Assembly (NCBI RefSeq): GCF_947623445.1
Contig: NC_135244.1
Span: 13,014,860-13,078,859 of the forward strand
Reading direction: 5' to 3'
Source of the DNA: Clavelina lepadiformis
Taxonomy: Eukaryota
Length of the DNA stretch: 64,000 bases
A program made the position numbers and the translations under genes. A model generated the notes under the pieces. The model searched no databases, was not told where the DNA came from, and saw only the letters and a list, made by a program, of their open reading frames with translations. Positions 19,586 to 41,046 of this stretch are shown here, piece after piece (within the stretch, counting starts at the first letter, position 1; each line of letters begins with the position of its first letter).

Positions 19586-21663
19586 CAGGAGTTGAGTTAT
19601 TTGTAGTAATTAAGCATATATGTACAATATTTATTCAAATTTTTAGCAATCTTACAATGTTGGCAAAACGAAGAAAAGTTGATGCTGAGTGCCGAGGTTT
19701 TAATGAAGTATGGGAGAACAAGTACTTTTTCACTAACCATTTTGGTAGACCCACATGTTTGATTTACAAAGTTTCTGATGCTGTAAACAAGAAATTCAAT
19801 ATAAAGCGCCATTATGACACAAAGCATGGCAATTTTTCCATTGTTCACAGGTCAAACAAGGAAAGACAGACTGAACCAACTTAGAAATAGCTTGAATCAG
19901 CAGAGTTTGGTATTCCAAAAACAAACCATTAAATCAAAAAATATTACTCTTGCTAACTACAAGGTAGCAAAATTAATAGCAGAAGACAAGAGACCATTTA
20001 CTGATAGGGAATTTGCAAAAAAATGTATGATGGCTGTTGTTGAAACCATTTGTCCGGAGAAAAAAAGCTATTTTCAGATGTCAGTCTTTCAGCAACAACC
20101 GTAACCCGACAATAGAAGAGCTGTCTGAGAATGTGAAATCTAGCCAGAAAGACTGCTTTGAAGATTTACAGTTTTTCTCAATAGCAATAGATAAGAGCAC
20201 AGACATGACAGATTTGCTAGCAGTATTTGTGTGTGGAATAAACGAAGAATTTCATGTTGTTGAGGACTTTGTTCAATTGGATCCTATCAAGGGTACTACT
20301 GCAGGAAGCAATATTATGAAGGCATTACTTCAATGTCTTGAAGTCATGAATCTGAATCTCTCAAAACTGGTGTCAATAGCAACTGATGGAGCACCGTCAA
20401 TGGTTGGGAAAAATAAAGGTGTCGTGTATTGGCTTCAAAAACACATAGAAAGCCAAGGAATTAATATCAACATTTTGGAATTATACTGTCTCATTCACCA
20501 GCAGGCCTTGTGCGTAAAAGTGCCAAGCTTGAAGGACGTAATAGTGAAGTCTGTAAACTTCATTCTGTCTCGAGGATTGAACCATCATCAATTTCGCCAA
20601 CTACTAAGCAGAGAATCAGTATGGTGACTTGCTTTATTTCTGCAAAATCCGCTGGCTCAGTCGAGGCGATATTCTACAAAGAGTGTACACACTGAGAGAA
20701 GAAATAGCAACCTTCCTTGAAAATAAAAACATGAAAGCTGAAAAATTTTGCGATCCAGAAAGGGTTTCTAATTTGGCATTTCTGGTTGATTTAACATTGC
20801 ATTTGAATAAGTTGGACTTGCAGCATCAGGGGAAGCATCAAATGATACACGAGATGTGGAGATACGCACATTTGAGACAAAACTACGACTCTGGGAAAAG
20901 TTAGCTGGAAAATGCAAATTATGCTCACTTTGCTACACTGCGAGAGAGCAAACCTACAAGCAGTACTTTATTTATTTCTTTGATACGACATTTAAAAACT
21001 GAATTTTCATCCTGCTTAGTTGATGTTCGTTCTCTCAAAAATGATATCAAATTATTCAGTAATCCATTTGATGTACAAGTGGATGCAGTACAAGAGAAGT
21101 ATCAAATGAAACTAGTCGAGCTGCAATGCAGTAACAACTTAAAGTCAAAATTTCACACCATTATCATTGCATGACTTTTATAAGAAATATCTTATACAAA
21201 TATCGAACAATATCCCAACTTGATCAATCATGCCAAAAAGACGGCATCAATGCTTGGTAGCACTTACACGTGTGAACAACTACTTTCGTCAATGAAACTC
21301 ACCAAGAGCAAGCTTAGAACACAGCTTACTGATAACCACTTGCAAGATGTTATGCTTCTTGCCTCATCCAACCTATCGCCTGAGCTTACAAAACTTTCTA
21401 GCATGAAGCAACACCAAATATCACATTAATTTTATACTGTCAATAAATGTATTTTGTGTTTTCGTTATGAATTGTTACTACTTTTGTTAGGATTAATCTA
21501 TAGCTAAGTAAGGTGATAATTTCATAAAAATGACTTAAATTCGCGAACTTTAATAGAATCATAAAAAGGGAAGGAAACGGAATTGTTAGTGGAAAATTAG
21601 TATAGTTGATATCTTGCAGAGTTTGGTTTTGGCCAGCGGCTAGAGAAAGGTTGCCAACCCCTG
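19586..21663. mobile_element. hAT-superfamily DNA transposon, autonomous-type copy with decayed transposase
   Basis: 3' terminus ...GGTTGCCAACCCCTG ends at 21663 and is rc-related to the 5' CAGGAGTTGAG at 19586. Flanks CTGTAGTT and CTGTAGAA are 6/8 identical. Internal transposase ORFs are listed separately. Confidence 0.55.
19657..21429 (+). pseudogene. hAT transposase, frameshifted into >=7 ORF pieces
   Basis: N-terminus KRRKVDAECRGFNEVWENKYFF, as in ZBED5/ZMYM6/FAM200-type domesticated hAT. Downstream fragments FVCGINEEFHVVEDFV, SIATDGAPSMVGKNKG and LYFCKIRWLSRGDILQRV are hAT dimerisation-region-like. Three frames are used, so it is not intact. Confidence 0.7.
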
Positions 21664-23641
21664 CTGTAGAAAATGTTCCAAACTTTCACCAGTTATATTT
21701 GATCATGCGGCTGATCAGCAAACACTTTTGATCTTTGATCAACAGTTTTTTCCACATAGAAAATAAACTGGATTTCCACTGCAGCTGATGTGGGCTAAGC
21801 TTTGTGTAGAAACACACCTGTAGCTTGAGGAATGTTTGAGCTTGAGAAGTTTATTATTGTTTCCTGATCTCAATTGGCAAACAGTTGCAACAGTTGCTTA
21901 AAACAGTGAGAGGCAAGTCCAAAAACAAGTTGGCCTTAAGTCAAATAGTTGTCCGGTCAGTGTAGTGGGAAGCTGCTGTAAACAAGTTACCCATCTGGGA
22001 AACACATGTTCCGAAGACGACAGCAAGCCAGTGTCACAAAAATCTTTAATGCAGCATTTGTTTTAAATTGTTGTCACTTTTGCAGTTATTAAATCTGTAT
22101 CGATGTTTAAATAAGCATACAACAACAGAGTACAATGGTAATATGTAGGTAGCATGCATTAAAAAAAGAGATAAAATTACTTTAGTGTCTTGCCAGCAAG
22201 ATTCATGCATCAAGCAGCATCTGTCAAAATGCTACAAAGTTTTTATTCAGTGTTCCGATTACGCGCAAGGTATCATCATCAACAATAGTATCAATTATGA
22301 CACTGTTGTTAACACTTTCGTCAAGGAAAACTCAGTTAACGAAGAAGGTTTCTATTGGAGTCTTCAAGCTTCTCACATGTACTTCAACATACATTTTCTA
22401 AGCAACATCAGCTTTATCTATGACCAAAAATACCTCTTTTCATCAAGCACTTTTTCACTTCCTTTTTGCGAGGCTCGGTTGGCAACGCTTGCTGGGGTAG
22501 CATTTTCAGATGTTATCACAGAGTCAGGTTTTATTGCAGCATGATTCAGCTCGTGAAGAGTCAAAAATGTTGAGATTATCTTATCAATACATTCATGTGG
22601 TTGCACTTGCTTGATGAATGTTTGTTCTGCATTCAATGCACTTTAATCTGTCTCTTTAATCCAGCTTGATGTTGCTTTTTATTTTGATGACTTTGTACAA
22701 AGTTTTTTTATTGTACTTAATTAAAGCTTCACAAAAATTGTGTCTTAAATCATCCCCAGGATTGGTAGTAAATTCATTTTGGAACTTTCTAAAAATCTGT
22801 CTAATAAGATAATTTACATTGGTTAGGCATTTTGCTACTATACAGTTTTTATAATAAGTCTAAACATAATGTATTTTCTGAAGAGAGCGTGACATAACAA
22901 AAAAAGATAATGCTATGTAAGGATGTGCCTTGAGGAATTTTATTTGGGTTCATGCAAACCCGAATATCATACAGGTTGACACATGCGAATCCAAAATCTA
23001 TTTGCATCAACATCAATAAATGATCTTGATTGCGAGGAATCTAAACCTTTTTTAGCTTAGCCACCAAAGTTGATAGGTTTACAAATAATAACGTATTCAA
23101 GTTTGTCATTCTTGGACGTTCATCTTTGCCCGAATCTTCCAAGCAGGTTATATTCACGAGTTTGGGTTTGTTTAAGTCCGACCCTATATTTGAGTATAAT
23201 CAGAAACAAAACTGAAACAACTTCAACACCTGTAGATGATAATTTCACACAATGAACAATTCTTAGTTGGATACAGTAATGTTAAGTTACAGTGTTTGTT
23301 GACTATATGTGTTTGTTTTTAATTTGAAATGTTTTTATTGTATATTAAAGATTAAATTATTTGCCAGGCCTTAGGGTTGCTTTTCTGGATGTTTTCATTA
23401 CCTACCTACTTGTACTATGCATTCATTGTATAATACAAAAAATAGCCATATTAGAGACCAAATTAAATACCGTCAACTGTACCCTTTCTATGTATGTTTT
23501 AGGAAATTGCAGTTTTTCCCAAATTTAGCGCTGTCCACCAAAAACATTGCACAAGCACAAGCTTAACGCAATCCAAGGGCATTATTGCTATGGAGTAATA
23601 ATTAATTAGAACTCTGGACTTGAGCGCTTAGCACTGGTTAC

Positions 23642-23851
23642 CTCCCCATCAGCTTGTCCTGGGGTATCAAAGCTCTCAAGAAATTTTCGAAAGACATCAT
23701 CTTCTGTCCATTCTCCATTTTGGAATTTTGGATGATGCTTAGCATTGTACACGCCACGTAGATCTTCTACAGTAATCACCCCATCACCAGTCTTGTCAAG
23801 TTTCCGAAATGCTTTTTGTATTAAGTTTTTTCGTGCTTTTGAGAGTGGTGG
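23642..23851 (-). CDS. CAPS: calcyphosin-like exon ([70 protein letters not shown])
   Basis: Acceptor atatctag|, donor GAG|gtaacc. Matches the human CAPS segment [49 protein letters not shown]. The last exon (second half of EF-hand 4) was not located. Confidence 0.75.
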
Positions 23852-24041
23852 CTAGATATGAACGCATGAAATGAAACAATATCTTTAAAAAGTCACAAAA
23901 AGCCATCTATTCATAATGTCAAAAGCAACCAACAACCATGACAAAATTTGGCATATAAGTAGCGAGAAAGAAGAATGTATGCTGCATTAATACGGTAATT
24001 TATACCATAATGCATACAAGATTATACATAAAAATACATAC

Positions 24042-40200: not shown

Positions 40201-40248
40201 ATAGAATATGTTTCATTTTAATTATTATTGTAAAAATACTATCTATAC

Positions 40249-40577
40249 CAGGGGCGGGCAACATACGGCCCGGGGGCCGGACCCGGCCCGCAACGGGATT
40301 TTGAGCGGCCCGCAGACAGTTTCCGGTCTTACATGATAAAACAAACATGGAGAGATAGCTGAACATTTTTTAGGAAAAGTCACCAAATTTCAAGTTTCTA
40401 CAGTAAACAATGCAACTGTACGCCACGTTTTGCTGTGACTGTGTGCAGGAGAAGCCACACCTAGTGAAAACAGGGTTAAAGTTTACATTAAATACGATTT
40501 GTATAGGTGGATAAATGCACGATTAATGTATCGATTCAGGAATCCGGCCCGCCGACCGAAGAAGTTGCCCGCCCCTG
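40249..40577. mobile_element. hAT-type MITE (family A) with perfect 8-bp TSD ATCTATAC
   Basis: TIR CAGGGGCGGGCAAC... at 40249 and ...GTTGCCCGCCCCTG ending 40577. TSD ATCTATAC at 40241-40248 and 40578-40585. The termini closely resemble the 3' end of the hAT at 21663 (GTTGCCAACCCCTG). Internal 40335-40460 is about 90% identical to 1127-1250. Confidence 0.8.
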
Positions 40578-41046
40578 ATCTATACGTATCAGGATGCAAG
40601 TAAAATGTCTTTCGCTGATTGGCTCATATAGCGATATAAAAGCTTAGGCTTGGTTTAAACCGCTCTCTTTTTCCCTTCTCGCTTATTCATCATTCAATTC
40701 AAGTGATAACTCTATCCGGATGAGAAATGGATATGAAATTGTTTCAGGTGTGACTACGACTATATTTTGAAAAATAGCCTATAACAAATTAGACTTTATG
40801 AATGTTGTGCTAATTTAAAGAAACAATCAGAGATAGCACATGCAACGGAGTCAAAGATAAAATAGTCAACAGTTTTAAAAGAAAGACTAAAGCCTTTCGA
40901 TTTAGGCCAACCAATCAAAAAATCAACATCAACAATCAACATCGCCATTCCCACAGTAATATCATTTTTATGGCCAAAATGCATCAAAACTTGCTTACGA
41001 AACGAGGTGGTTCATGAAACAAACTCACATTTCCAAGACTGTCGGT

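What the first reader, a model, noticed from the sequence alone, without database searches (positions are those of the whole stretch)
19586..40585. A degraded autonomous hAT and three very young MITE derivatives with perfect 8-bp TSDs
The MITEs at 29820-30287, 30718-31209 and 40249-40577 each begin CAGGG(G)TGG/CGG..CAA and end with the reverse complement. Each is flanked by an identical 8-bp duplication (GTCTAGAA, GTGTATAG, ATCTATAC), the hAT hallmark, so they inserted recently. Their termini match the 3' end of the 2.1-kb element at 19586-21663 (GGTTGCCAACCCCTG vs GTTGCCCGCCCCTG). That element still carries a recognisable but frameshifted hAT transposase (KRRKVDAECRGFNEVWENKYFF...). So the MITEs were probably mobilised in trans by an intact relative located elsewhere. 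All TSDs are T/A-rich with a central TA/TAG.
Basis: seen in the sequence. Interest (0 to 1): 0.55.

Follow-up and report, generated by a model that had tools for sequence, protein, structure and literature searches.

The report
Dead hAT transposon plus hAT MITEs
This stretch of a sea-squirt (Clavelina lepadiformis) chromosome holds one broken copy of a common cut-and-paste transposon and several small non-coding relatives that inserted more recently, which is ordinary repeat content.

Summary
M1 (29820-30287), M2 (30718-31209) and M3 (40249-40577) each have CAGGG-type terminal inverted repeats (12/14, 13/14, 14/14) and a perfect 8-bp target-site duplication. A strict scan finds exactly these three, against 0 in 200 shuffles.

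The 2.1-kb element is a GTF2IRD2-like hAT transposase pseudogene with 8 frameshifts. It is 67% identical at the protein level to an intact 609-aa relative.

The window is Clavelina lepadiformis, shown by an exact match to its protein Red-like.

- The MITEs share no internal sequence with each other or with the 2.1-kb element, so they are separate families, not its deletion derivatives.
- Similarity to its 3' end stops at the 14-15-nt TIR.
- M1 and M3 carry the 5' subterminal GGCCCGC repeats of intact relatives of this clade found in other assemblies. M2 does not.
- The 2.1-kb copy lacks about 770 bp of its 5' end.
- All duplications fit nnnTAnnn, the Buster-family signature, as do 13/13 relatives.
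- No full-length transposase was found among the Clavelina proteins listed by two searches.
- "Very young" is not shown. Zero changes in the duplications only bound divergence since insertion at about 5-6%.

A fourth MITE (5885-6167) was missed.

The parts
19586..21663 (+). Dead, internally deleted copy of a GTF2IRD2-like (Buster/Charlie-type) hAT transposon. The 3' TIR CAGGGGTTGGCAACC (reverse complement) is intact. At the 5' end only about 9 nt of TIR remain (CAGGAGTTG).
   Evidence: The 3' end at 21663 is confirmed by homology with the ends of the L012/L013 elements and with metagenome elements. The 5' region is about 770 bp shorter than in L012/L013.
19657..21429 (+). Transposase pseudogene. 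It has 8 frameshifts, near 19846, 20069, 20110, 20607, 20860, 20904, 21166 and 21200. It is 66.7% identical at the protein level to the intact 609-aa P0001. The conceptual translation keeps the motifs AIDKSTD, TDGAPSM, CLIHQ, RWLSRG and CEQL.
   Evidence: Frameshift-aware alignment. Homologue search. Pfam Dimer_Tnp_hAT scores 21.1 bits on the reconstruction against a cut-off of 21.4, and 27.1 bits on P0001.
19577..19584 (.). Probable decayed left target-site duplication of the large element, CTGTAGTT. It is separated from the terminus by one extra A at 19585.
   Evidence: It matches the right flank CTGTAGAA at 6/8. My post-hoc estimate that this match plus the TIR remnant arose by chance is about 5e-4.
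21664..21671 (.). Right target-site duplication of the large element, CTGTAGAA, with a central TA.
29820..30287 (+). MITE M1, 468 bp. TIR 12/14. Four GGCCCGC boxes lie in the 5' subterminal 65 nt and one near the 3' end. Perfect duplication GTCTAGAA at 29812-29819 and 30288-30295.
   Evidence: Positions 19-65 are 81% identical, in register, to the 5' end of the intact L001 element. The subterminal similarity has p<=0.006.
30718..31209 (+). MITE M2, 492 bp. TIR 14/15. The subterminal boxes are GAGCCGC/GAGCCAC, not GGCCCGC. Perfect duplication GTGTATAG at 30710-30717 and 31210-31217.
   Evidence: No subterminal similarity to any autonomous element tested.
40249..40577 (+). MITE M3, 329 bp. TIR 14/14 (CAGGGGCGGGCAAC). 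GGCCCGC boxes at both ends. Perfect duplication ATCTATAC at 40241-40248 and 40578-40585.
   Evidence: The first 43 nt are 81% identical to the L001 element 5' end. The first 65-86 nt are 84-91% identical to element ends in JGI metagenome contigs. The core, positions 88-211, is 92.7% identical to window 1120-1243.
5885..6167 (+). TIR CAGGGGTGTTCAAAT / CGGGGGTGTTCAAAT (14/15). Perfect duplication ATCTAGGG at 5877-5884 and 6168-6175.
   Evidence: No similarity to M1-M3 or to the large element beyond the TIR.
16005..16878 (+). Older hAT-like non-autonomous element, 874 bp. TIR CGGCGGTGCCCAAAC / CAGGGGTGTCCAAAC (12/15). Decayed duplication CCTTAAGT / CTCTAGGT (5/8, central TA kept).

Best explanation
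The window comes from the ascidian Clavelina lepadiformis.

The large element. Positions 19586-21663 are a dead copy of a cut-and-paste hAT transposon of the GTF2IRD2-like (Charlie/Buster-type) clade.
- Its transposase gene carries 8 frameshifts.
- About 770 bp of its 5' end are deleted, including most of the 5' TIR and all 5' subterminal repeats.
- It can therefore neither make transposase nor, probably, be moved.

The small elements. The same 64 kb holds at least four structurally intact non-coding hAT elements: M1, M2, M3, and M4 at 5885-6167.
- They belong to four unrelated families.
- Each has a 14-15-nt CAGGGG-type TIR and a perfect 8-bp duplication of the form nnnTAnnn.

How they moved (inferred from established hAT biochemistry, as in Hermes and TcBuster). 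A transposase supplied in trans binds the TIR and the short subterminal repeats. It excises the element and inserts it at a staggered 8-bp cut centred on TA. Gap repair then produces the duplication.

Which transposase.
- M1 and M3 have the same 5' architecture as intact autonomous members of this transposase clade: TIR, then GGCCCGCGGGCC, then further GGCCCGC boxes. They are most likely served by a transposase of this clade.
- M2 and M4 share only the TIR and the target preference. They may depend on a different hAT transposase.
- None of the four is a deletion derivative of the copy at 19586.

Shown here: structures, duplications, family relationships, the pseudogene state and the target-site pattern.
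Inferred: trans-mobilisation, which transposase acted, and how recently.
For: Species. Window ORF 46368-47957 is identical to XP_076814335.1, protein Red-like of Clavelina lepadiformis.

Structures.. A strict structural scan gives 3 hits against 0 in 200 shuffles. TIR-like 15-mers number 14 against 2.4 expected.

Transposase.
- 596 homologues were found. The named ones are annotated 'GTF2IRD2-like', SPIN-DOC-like zinc-finger domain protein, or hypothetical protein. The best is 65% identical over the full length.
- There are 8 frameshifts, and the catalytic-type motifs are kept.
- The literature identifies non-mammalian GTF2IRD2-like models as hAT transposons (PMC10641963).

Intact relatives.
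- Eleven copies of a 3,457-bp element (L001-L011) have the TIR CAGGGGTCGGCAACC and GGCCCGC subterminal boxes. Each has a perfect 8-bp nnnTAnnn duplication.
- Two closer relatives, L012 5951-8775 and L013 9165-12000, are 78-79% identical in DNA to the window element. They have about 830 bp upstream of the ATG, against 65 bp in the window.

Links between the MITEs and the clade.
- GGCCCGC occurs 11 times in the window against 0.8 expected. Eight of these are in M1 and M3.
- The 5' ends of M1 and M3 align in register with the 5' ends of the relatives. Beyond the TIR, p is 0.002-0.006.
- The first 65-86 nt of M3 are 84-91% identical to ends in metagenome contigs. The last 100-150 nt of the large element are 77-85% identical to ends in the same set.
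- 94 of 119 such ends have TA at flank positions 4-5.

Family assignment. nnnTAnnn is the published Buster-family target consensus. It is also reported for Mar, a MITE whose putative transposase resembles TFII-I (GTF2IRD2-type) proteins (PMC3517528).
Against: - No MITE shares subterminal or internal sequence with the window's own large element. The only link to that particular copy is a TIR of a type shared widely in this group.
- M2 and M4 lack the GGCCCGC boxes.
- No full-length transposase of this clade appears among the Clavelina proteins listed by the two searches (best 120 hits each). The three models are 367, 508 and 528 aa. A current source of transposase in this genome is therefore not shown.
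- The genome could not be searched, so copy number and family divergence are unknown.
- The 5' terminus of the large element rests on a 9-nt remnant and a 6/8 duplication with a 1-nt offset.
Confidence: 0.85

Rival explanations
1. All three MITEs are recent internal-deletion derivatives of the autonomous family represented by the 2.1-kb element. They are mobilised by an intact copy of that same family elsewhere in the genome.
For: - The TIR of M3 is 12/14 identical to the 3' TIR of the large element.
- The 5' ends of M1 and M3 resemble the 5' ends of autonomous relatives of that element.
- The target-site pattern is the same.
Against: - There is no similarity between any MITE and the large element beyond the TIR, and none among the MITEs.
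- M2 has different subterminal boxes.
- True derivatives of this transposon type keep its 3' subterminal 100-150 nt, as L033 does. M1-M3 do not.
- No intact Clavelina transposase was found among the listed hits.
Confidence: 0.1
2. The MITEs are unrelated to the GTF2IRD2-like clade altogether. They are served by other hAT lineages in the genome, such as Ac, Tip100 or another type. The 2.1-kb relic is a bystander that happens to share the generic CAGGGG terminus.
For: - CAG-initial short TIRs are generic in hAT elements (established knowledge).
- M2 and M4 share nothing else with the clade.
Against: - M1 and M3 share in-register subterminal GGCCCGC architecture with three independent autonomous elements of this clade.
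- All duplications follow nnnTAnnn, as do 13/13 copies of these autonomous relatives. I did not check whether they fit the Ac-type consensus nTnnnnAn.
Confidence: 0.05
3. The inverted repeats and flanking duplications are chance or low-complexity coincidences in AT-rich DNA, not transposon insertions.
For: The window is 35% G+C. At relaxed thresholds (TIR >=10/14, duplication >=6/8) the scan is near background, with 8 hits against 4.1 expected.
Against: At strict thresholds there are 3 hits against 0 in 200 shuffles. The ends are homologous to ends of bona fide autonomous elements from other assemblies.
Confidence: 0.005

Closest known systems
Buster-family hAT transposons (TcBuster, AeBuster, SPIN) and Charlie-type elements, including non-mammalian 'GTF2IRD2-like' hAT-6-type transposons (PMC10641963)
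   Same: - 8-bp duplication with the nnnTAnnn consensus.
- A 14-15-nt CAGGGG-type TIR.
- A transposase of about 600 aa with an N-terminal SPIN-DOC-type zinc finger, an RNase-H-like core and a hAT C-terminal dimerisation region.
   Different: - The window copy is a pseudogene with 8 frameshifts and a 5' deletion.
- Its closest full-length relative in the databases is only 65% identical at the protein level. It therefore represents an uncatalogued tunicate lineage of the clade.
- No phylogeny was built here.
Mar, a hAT MITE family of Drosophila willistoni (PMC3517528)
   Same: - Short non-coding elements.
- A CAG(G/A)GG-type TIR.
- 8-bp nnnTAnnn duplications.
- A putative partner transposase resembling TFII-I/GTF2IRD2-type proteins.
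   Different: - Different host phylum, and no sequence relationship was tested.
- Mar is one family with many copies.
- Here four different families are each seen once in 64 kb.
Ac/Ds of maize, the textbook autonomous and deletion-derivative hAT pair
   Same: - A defective copy next to non-autonomous elements that need transposase in trans.
- The transposase recognises TIRs plus short subterminal repeats (established knowledge).
   Different: - Most Ds elements are internal deletions of Ac that keep both subterminal regions. M1-M4 share no subterminal sequence with the local autonomous relic.
- The target consensus is Buster-type, and Ac belongs to a different hAT family.
Human MER/Charlie-derived MITEs such as MER5, MER20 and MER30 (from memory, not tested)
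   Same: CAGGGGT..CAAC-type termini and GC-rich subterminal boxes, with sizes of 200-500 bp.
   Different: The human elements are ancient fossils with decayed duplications. The ones here have perfect duplications.

Membership tests
hAT superfamily | 8-bp target-site duplication | tested here: met
   Perfect 8-bp duplications flank M1, M2, M3 and M4. The same holds for 13/13 autonomous relatives. The large element has a 6/8 remnant.
hAT superfamily | Short (about 10-25 nt) terminal inverted repeats beginning with CAG/YAG | tested here: met
   TIRs are 12/14 to 14/14 and all begin CAGG.
hAT superfamily | Transposase with the hAT C-terminal dimerisation domain (Pfam PF05699) | tested here: inconclusive
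   The reconstructed window protein scores 21.1 bits against a curated cut-off of 21.4. The intact relative P0001, at 67% identity, scores 27.1 bits and passes.
hAT superfamily | DDE catalytic residues with CxxH and RW motifs | tested here: met
   The frameshift-corrected translation keeps AIDKSTD, TDGAPSM, CLIHQ, RWLSRG and CEQL, aligned with the intact P0001. I assigned these motifs to catalytic roles from knowledge of Hermes. No structural test was done.
Buster family of hAT (sensu Arensburger et al. 2011, as cited in PMC3517528) | Target-site consensus 5'-nnnTAnnn-3' | tested here: met
   TA sits at positions 4-5 in M1-M4 and in the right flank of the large element. It also does in 13/13 relatives and in 94/119 metagenome ends. 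The background TA frequency is 0.084.
Buster family of hAT | Transposase groups with Buster/Charlie-type transposases in a phylogeny | not tested
   I have similarity only. Many named homologues are annotated GTF2IRD2-like. No tree with Ac, Buster and Tip reference sequences was built.
MITE | Short (<800 bp), no coding capacity, with TIRs and a duplication | tested here: met
   Sizes are 283-492 bp. The longest stop-free stretch is 50-70 codons. TIRs and duplications as above.
MITE | Many homogeneous copies in the genome | not testable with these tools
   The Clavelina genome is not in any searchable collection. Within the 64-kb window, only a 124-bp segment of M3 has a second copy, at 92.7% identity.
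Deletion derivative of the 19586-21663 element family | Subterminal sequences at both ends shared with the autonomous element | tested here: not met
   No MITE end shows convincing similarity to the element's 3' subterminal region beyond the TIR. The single nominal hit, the M4 5' end at p=0.008, is what 60 comparisons would give by chance. Its 5' subterminal region is deleted. Against the 5' ends of its relatives, M1 and M3 are similar and M2 and M4 are not.

The most novel reading that the evidence does not exclude
A Buster/Charlie-type hAT system is active now, or was very recently, in Clavelina lepadiformis. The four MITE insertions would then be polymorphic among individuals, and an intact tunicate transposase would exist that recognises GGCCCGC-box ends. 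Such a system could give population markers for this invasive ascidian, or a new TcBuster-like tool.
Probability: 0.3. Interest if true: 0.25.

Novelty: new member of a known kind. Interest (0 to 1): 0.12.

Why it matters
It matters little beyond annotation.
- It adds uncatalogued hAT MITE families and a GTF2IRD2-like transposon relic to the repeat inventory of an ascidian genome.
- It is one more example that 'GTF2IRD2-like' gene models in non-mammals are transposons.
- If the families proved active, the insertions could serve as presence/absence markers. The intact relatives (L001-L011) could be candidates for transposon tools.

Tried and rejected
- Fetching more Clavelina DNA through proteins of the species (P0055, P0015, P0148): none is on record in the contig index. 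A genome-wide copy count, family divergence and a search for an intact transposase were therefore impossible.
- Looking for the missing 5' part of the large element elsewhere in the window, using the 5' 840-1325 nt of L012, L013 and L001: nothing upstream of 19624. The only hit was a short relic at 828-888 that belongs to a different composite element.
- Testing whether the two ENA assemblies with relatives are the same species as the window: no shared repeats in about 100 kb of flanks, so probably not. The same holds for the JGI metagenome contigs.
- Relaxed structural scan (TIR >=10/14, duplication >=6/8): 8 hits against 4.1 expected, so not informative.
- Candidate partners for TIR-like sites at 15809, 33609, 38003, 42216 and 54662: no hAT-type partner with a matching duplication. 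Site 33609 lies inside the long TIR of a different element.
- Pfam scan of the other long ORFs in the window: only the Red-like gene hits.
- PDB sequence search with P0001: no hit.
- Rejected: a domesticated GTF2IRD2-like gene. The copy has 8 frameshifts, a TIR and a duplication remnant.
- Rejected: another superfamily with 8-bp duplications. The ends are homologous to those of autonomous hAT elements.

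
Full report
**Source of the window.** The ORF at 46368-47957 is identical, residue for residue, to XP_076814335.1, 'protein Red-like' of Clavelina lepadiformis. It carries the RED_N and RED_C domains. The window is therefore a piece of a 24.6-Mb chromosome of this colonial ascidian. It is 35% G+C.

**Check of the observation.** I re-read the three small elements and their flanks.
- M1 is 29820-30287, 468 bp. Its ends are CAGGGTGGTCCAAA and, as reverse complement, CAGGATGGTCCAAG (12/14). 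GTCTAGAA flanks both sides.
- M2 is 30718-31209, 492 bp. Its ends are CAGGGGTGGCCAGAC / CAGGGGTGGCCAAAC (14/15). GTGTATAG flanks both sides.
- M3 is 40249-40577, 329 bp. CAGGGGCGGGCAAC is at both ends (14/14). ATCTATAC flanks both sides.

I scanned for CAG...CTG pairs 80-6000 bp apart with at least 11/14 TIR matches and identical 8-bp flanks. The scan returns exactly these three. It returns none in 200 dinucleotide-preserving shuffles. TIR-like 15-mers are also enriched in the window, 14 against 2.4 expected. The elements have no coding capacity: their longest stop-free stretches are 50-70 codons.

**The 2.1-kb element.** A frameshift-aware alignment of 19641-21440 against the intact relative P0001 runs from 19657 to the stop at 21427.
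- It needs 8 frameshifts and contains no other in-frame stop.
- Identity is 66.7% over 589 codons.
- The conceptual protein keeps the motifs that I take, from knowledge of Hermes-type hAT transposases, to be the DDE, CxxH and RW elements: AIDKSTD, TDGAPSM, CLIHQ, RWLSRG, CEQL.
- It has 596 database homologues. [quoted passage not shown]
- A published analysis shows that such non-mammalian models are hAT transposons mislabelled because human GTF2IRD2 contains a Charlie8-derived domain (PMC10641963).
- Pfam's hAT dimerisation domain scores 21.1 bits on my reconstruction, just under the 21.4 cut-off. It scores 27.1 bits on P0001.

**Relatives from other assemblies define the element's true anatomy.**

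The first set comes from ENA sample ERZ22157276.
- P0001 and its identical-protein siblings lie in eleven copies of a 3,457-bp element (L001-L011).
- Each copy has the TIR CAGGGGTCGGCAACC and subterminal GGCCCGC boxes.
- Each has a perfect 8-bp duplication with TA at positions 4-5.

The second set is closer to the window element, at 78-79% DNA identity, and comes from ERZ25067582.
- These elements are L012 5951-8775 and L013 9165-12000.
- They have the same TIR and the duplications TGCTAGAA and GTCTAAAC.
- They carry about 830 bp between the 5' tip and the ATG.
- Their 3' ends align with the window element right up to 21663, which fixes that terminus.

The 5' end of the window element is different.
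- Homology to L012/L013 fades at about 19605-19624.
- The missing 5' sequence is nowhere else in the window.
- What remains at 19586 is CAGGAGTTG (8/9 against the 3' TIR), preceded by CTGTAGTT plus one A. The right flank is CTGTAGAA.
- By my own rough estimate, a TIR remnant of that quality next to a 6/8 flank match within a 100-nt search space has a chance probability of about 5e-4.

I read the copy as an internal-deletion derivative that has lost about 770 bp, including all 5' subterminal repeats.

**Are the MITEs derivatives of this element?** All-against-all BLAST at word size 7 finds no similarity among M1, M2 and M3, and none between any of them and the large element. A 16-nt match between M2 and another element's TIR end is the only exception.

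I repeated the comparison with the first 15 nt excluded, using shuffle controls.
- No MITE end shows convincing similarity to the 3' subterminal region of the large element. The one nominal hit, the M4 5' end at p=0.008, is what 60 comparisons would produce by chance.
- The 5' ends of M1 and M3 are significantly similar to the 5' ends of the autonomous relatives L001 and L013 (p 0.002-0.006, the floor of the test).
- M2 is similar to nothing.

The shared architecture is visible by eye: the TIR, then T(A/G)CGGCCC..GGGCC, then another GGCCCGC about 6-8 nt on.
- GGCCCGC occurs 11 times in the window against 0.8 expected. Eight of these lie in M1 and M3.
- M2 instead carries GAGCCGC/GAGCCAC boxes.

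**Wider distribution of the 5' signature.** I scanned JGI metagenome contigs with the TIR plus the first subterminal box (CAGGGGYNGGCAACNTRCGGCCC).
- Of 119 ends, 94 have TA at flank positions 4-5.
- Nine are complete 328-874-bp MITEs with perfect duplications.
- The first 65-86 nt of M3 are 84-91% identical to some of these ends.
- The last 100-150 nt of the window's large element are 77-85% identical to others.
- One contig shows what a genuine deletion derivative of this transposon type looks like. L033 2883-3261 is 379 bp. It has a 5' end like that of the autonomous relatives L012/L013 and a 3' end...GGCCCGTGACTAGGGAAAGGTTGCCGACCCCTG, like that of the window element.

None of M1-M4 has that 3' sequence. 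My conclusion is that M1 and M3 belong to the group of non-autonomous elements served by this transposase clade. M2 can only be assigned to hAT. None descends from the copy at 19586 or, on present evidence, from its immediate family.

**Target sites.** Every duplication in the window has TA at positions 4-5: GTCTAGAA, GTGTATAG, ATCTATAC, ATCTAGGG, and CTGTAGAA for the large element. The same is true of all 13 autonomous relatives. The window's TA frequency is 0.084. nnnTAnnn is the published consensus of the Buster family of hAT. It was used to assign the Drosophila MITE Mar, whose putative transposase also resembles TFII-I/GTF2IRD2 proteins (PMC3517528). I did not build a phylogeny.

**Age.**
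That bounds divergence since insertion at 6.1% or 4.6% (95%).
- The large element has 2 mismatches and an indel in its duplication, and the element at 16005-16878 has 3/8 mismatches. The four MITE insertions are therefore probably younger than those two.
- 'Very young' is not demonstrated. The only duplicated MITE segment in the window, the M3 core against 1120-1243, is 92.7% identical.

**Source of transposase.** Among the best 120 hits of two protein searches, three models are from Clavelina.
- P0015 (508 aa) and P0055 (367 aa) are 97% identical to each other and lie on two chromosomes. This points to a second, younger family.
- P0180 is 528 aa.
- None is full length, and P0015 has no Pfam hit in this library.

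An intact trans-acting source in this genome is plausible but not shown. The genome itself could not be queried.

**Other elements found.**
M4 is 5885-6167, 283 bp, with the TIR CAGGGGTGTTCAAAT and the duplication ATCTAGGG.
- An older hAT-like element lies at 16005-16878.
- Further items are listed under 'noticed in passing'.

**Verdict.** This is a correct and careful reading of ordinary repeat content: a dead Buster/Charlie-type hAT copy and several hAT MITEs in an ascidian genome. The mechanism is the standard cut-and-paste one. Transposase binds the TIR and subterminal repeats and makes an 8-bp staggered cut at TA. That mechanism is inferred from the family, not tested here. The claim that the MITEs derive from this element is not supported. 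A clade-level cognate relationship is supported for M1 and M3 only. Interest is low.

Noticed in passing
TIR CAGGGGTGTTCAAAT / CGGGGGTGTTCAAAT. Perfect 8-bp duplication ATCTAGGG. Subterminal GATCC-type boxes. Unrelated to M1-M3.
   Followed up: yes
window 16005-16878, and 15809-17153 around it: An older hAT-like element (874 bp) with TIR 12/15 and a decayed duplication, CCTTAAGT / CTCTAGGT. It lies between a perfect 14-nt inverted repeat, CAGAGGTGGGCAGT at 15809-15822 and 17140-17153. That repeat has no matching duplication and may be chance.
   Followed up: partly
window 432-1340: A composite element of about 890 bp.
- It is bounded by inverted arrays of a 15-bp tandem repeat (GACAGTTNATCGAAC; 434-560 and 1249-1324; 60-nt arms 90% complementary).
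- It is flanked by the 9-bp direct repeat GTAGTGAGC, at 432-440 and 1332-1340. These are the only two occurrences in the window.
- Inside is a perfect 18-nt palindrome (809-826 / 832-849), followed by sequence 79% identical to positions 18-77 of the L012 hAT 5' end.
- It also holds a 124-bp block (1120-1243) that is 92.7% identical to the core of M3.
It may belong to a different superfamily with a 9-bp duplication that has captured hAT-MITE sequence.
   Followed up: partly
window 33492-34219: An element of about 730 bp with long inverted arms: 131 nt at 79% plus 27 nt at 89% complementary. It is a long-TIR MITE of a different kind, not hAT-like.
   Followed up: no
window 42216 and 54662 (+ strand): Two solo hAT-like ends with TA-centred flanks. 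One is ttcTAaaa|CAGCGGTCCCCAACC.., the other gcaTAcaa|CAGTGGTTCCCAACC.. They carry GTCCGC/GGCCGC subterminal boxes. No partner end was found within 8 kb.
   Followed up: partly
window ~49210-49375: A degraded remnant resembling the 3' region of M1, with GGGCCAC..GGGGCCCTGGATGC..CAGGTTGGGCAT. Probably an old hAT MITE relic.
   Followed up: no
window 46368-47960: An apparently intronless 530-aa gene for protein Red-like (IK homologue; RED_N and RED_C domains). It is identical to XP_076814335.1 and identifies the species as Clavelina lepadiformis.
   Followed up: yes
L001-L011 (ENA ERZ22157276), element at 2676-6132 of each locus: A recently active hAT in another, unidentified organism. Eleven 3,457-bp copies encode an identical 609-aa transposase, all with perfect TIRs and duplications. 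Every copy also carries a separate 84-aa ORF with a CENP-B_N (HTH) domain at 3464-3718, upstream of the transposase. This could be an upstream exon or a captured pogo-type DNA-binding module.
   Followed up: no
L013 9722-9787 and L012 ~6483-6554: The 5' region of the close relatives contains a second, diverged copy of the first ~22 codons of the transposase (KRRKVDAECRDF..KYFF), about 280 bp upstream of the real ATG. A TTTTAG acceptor-like site lies just before the ATG. This suggests an upstream exon or a partial internal duplication.
   Followed up: no
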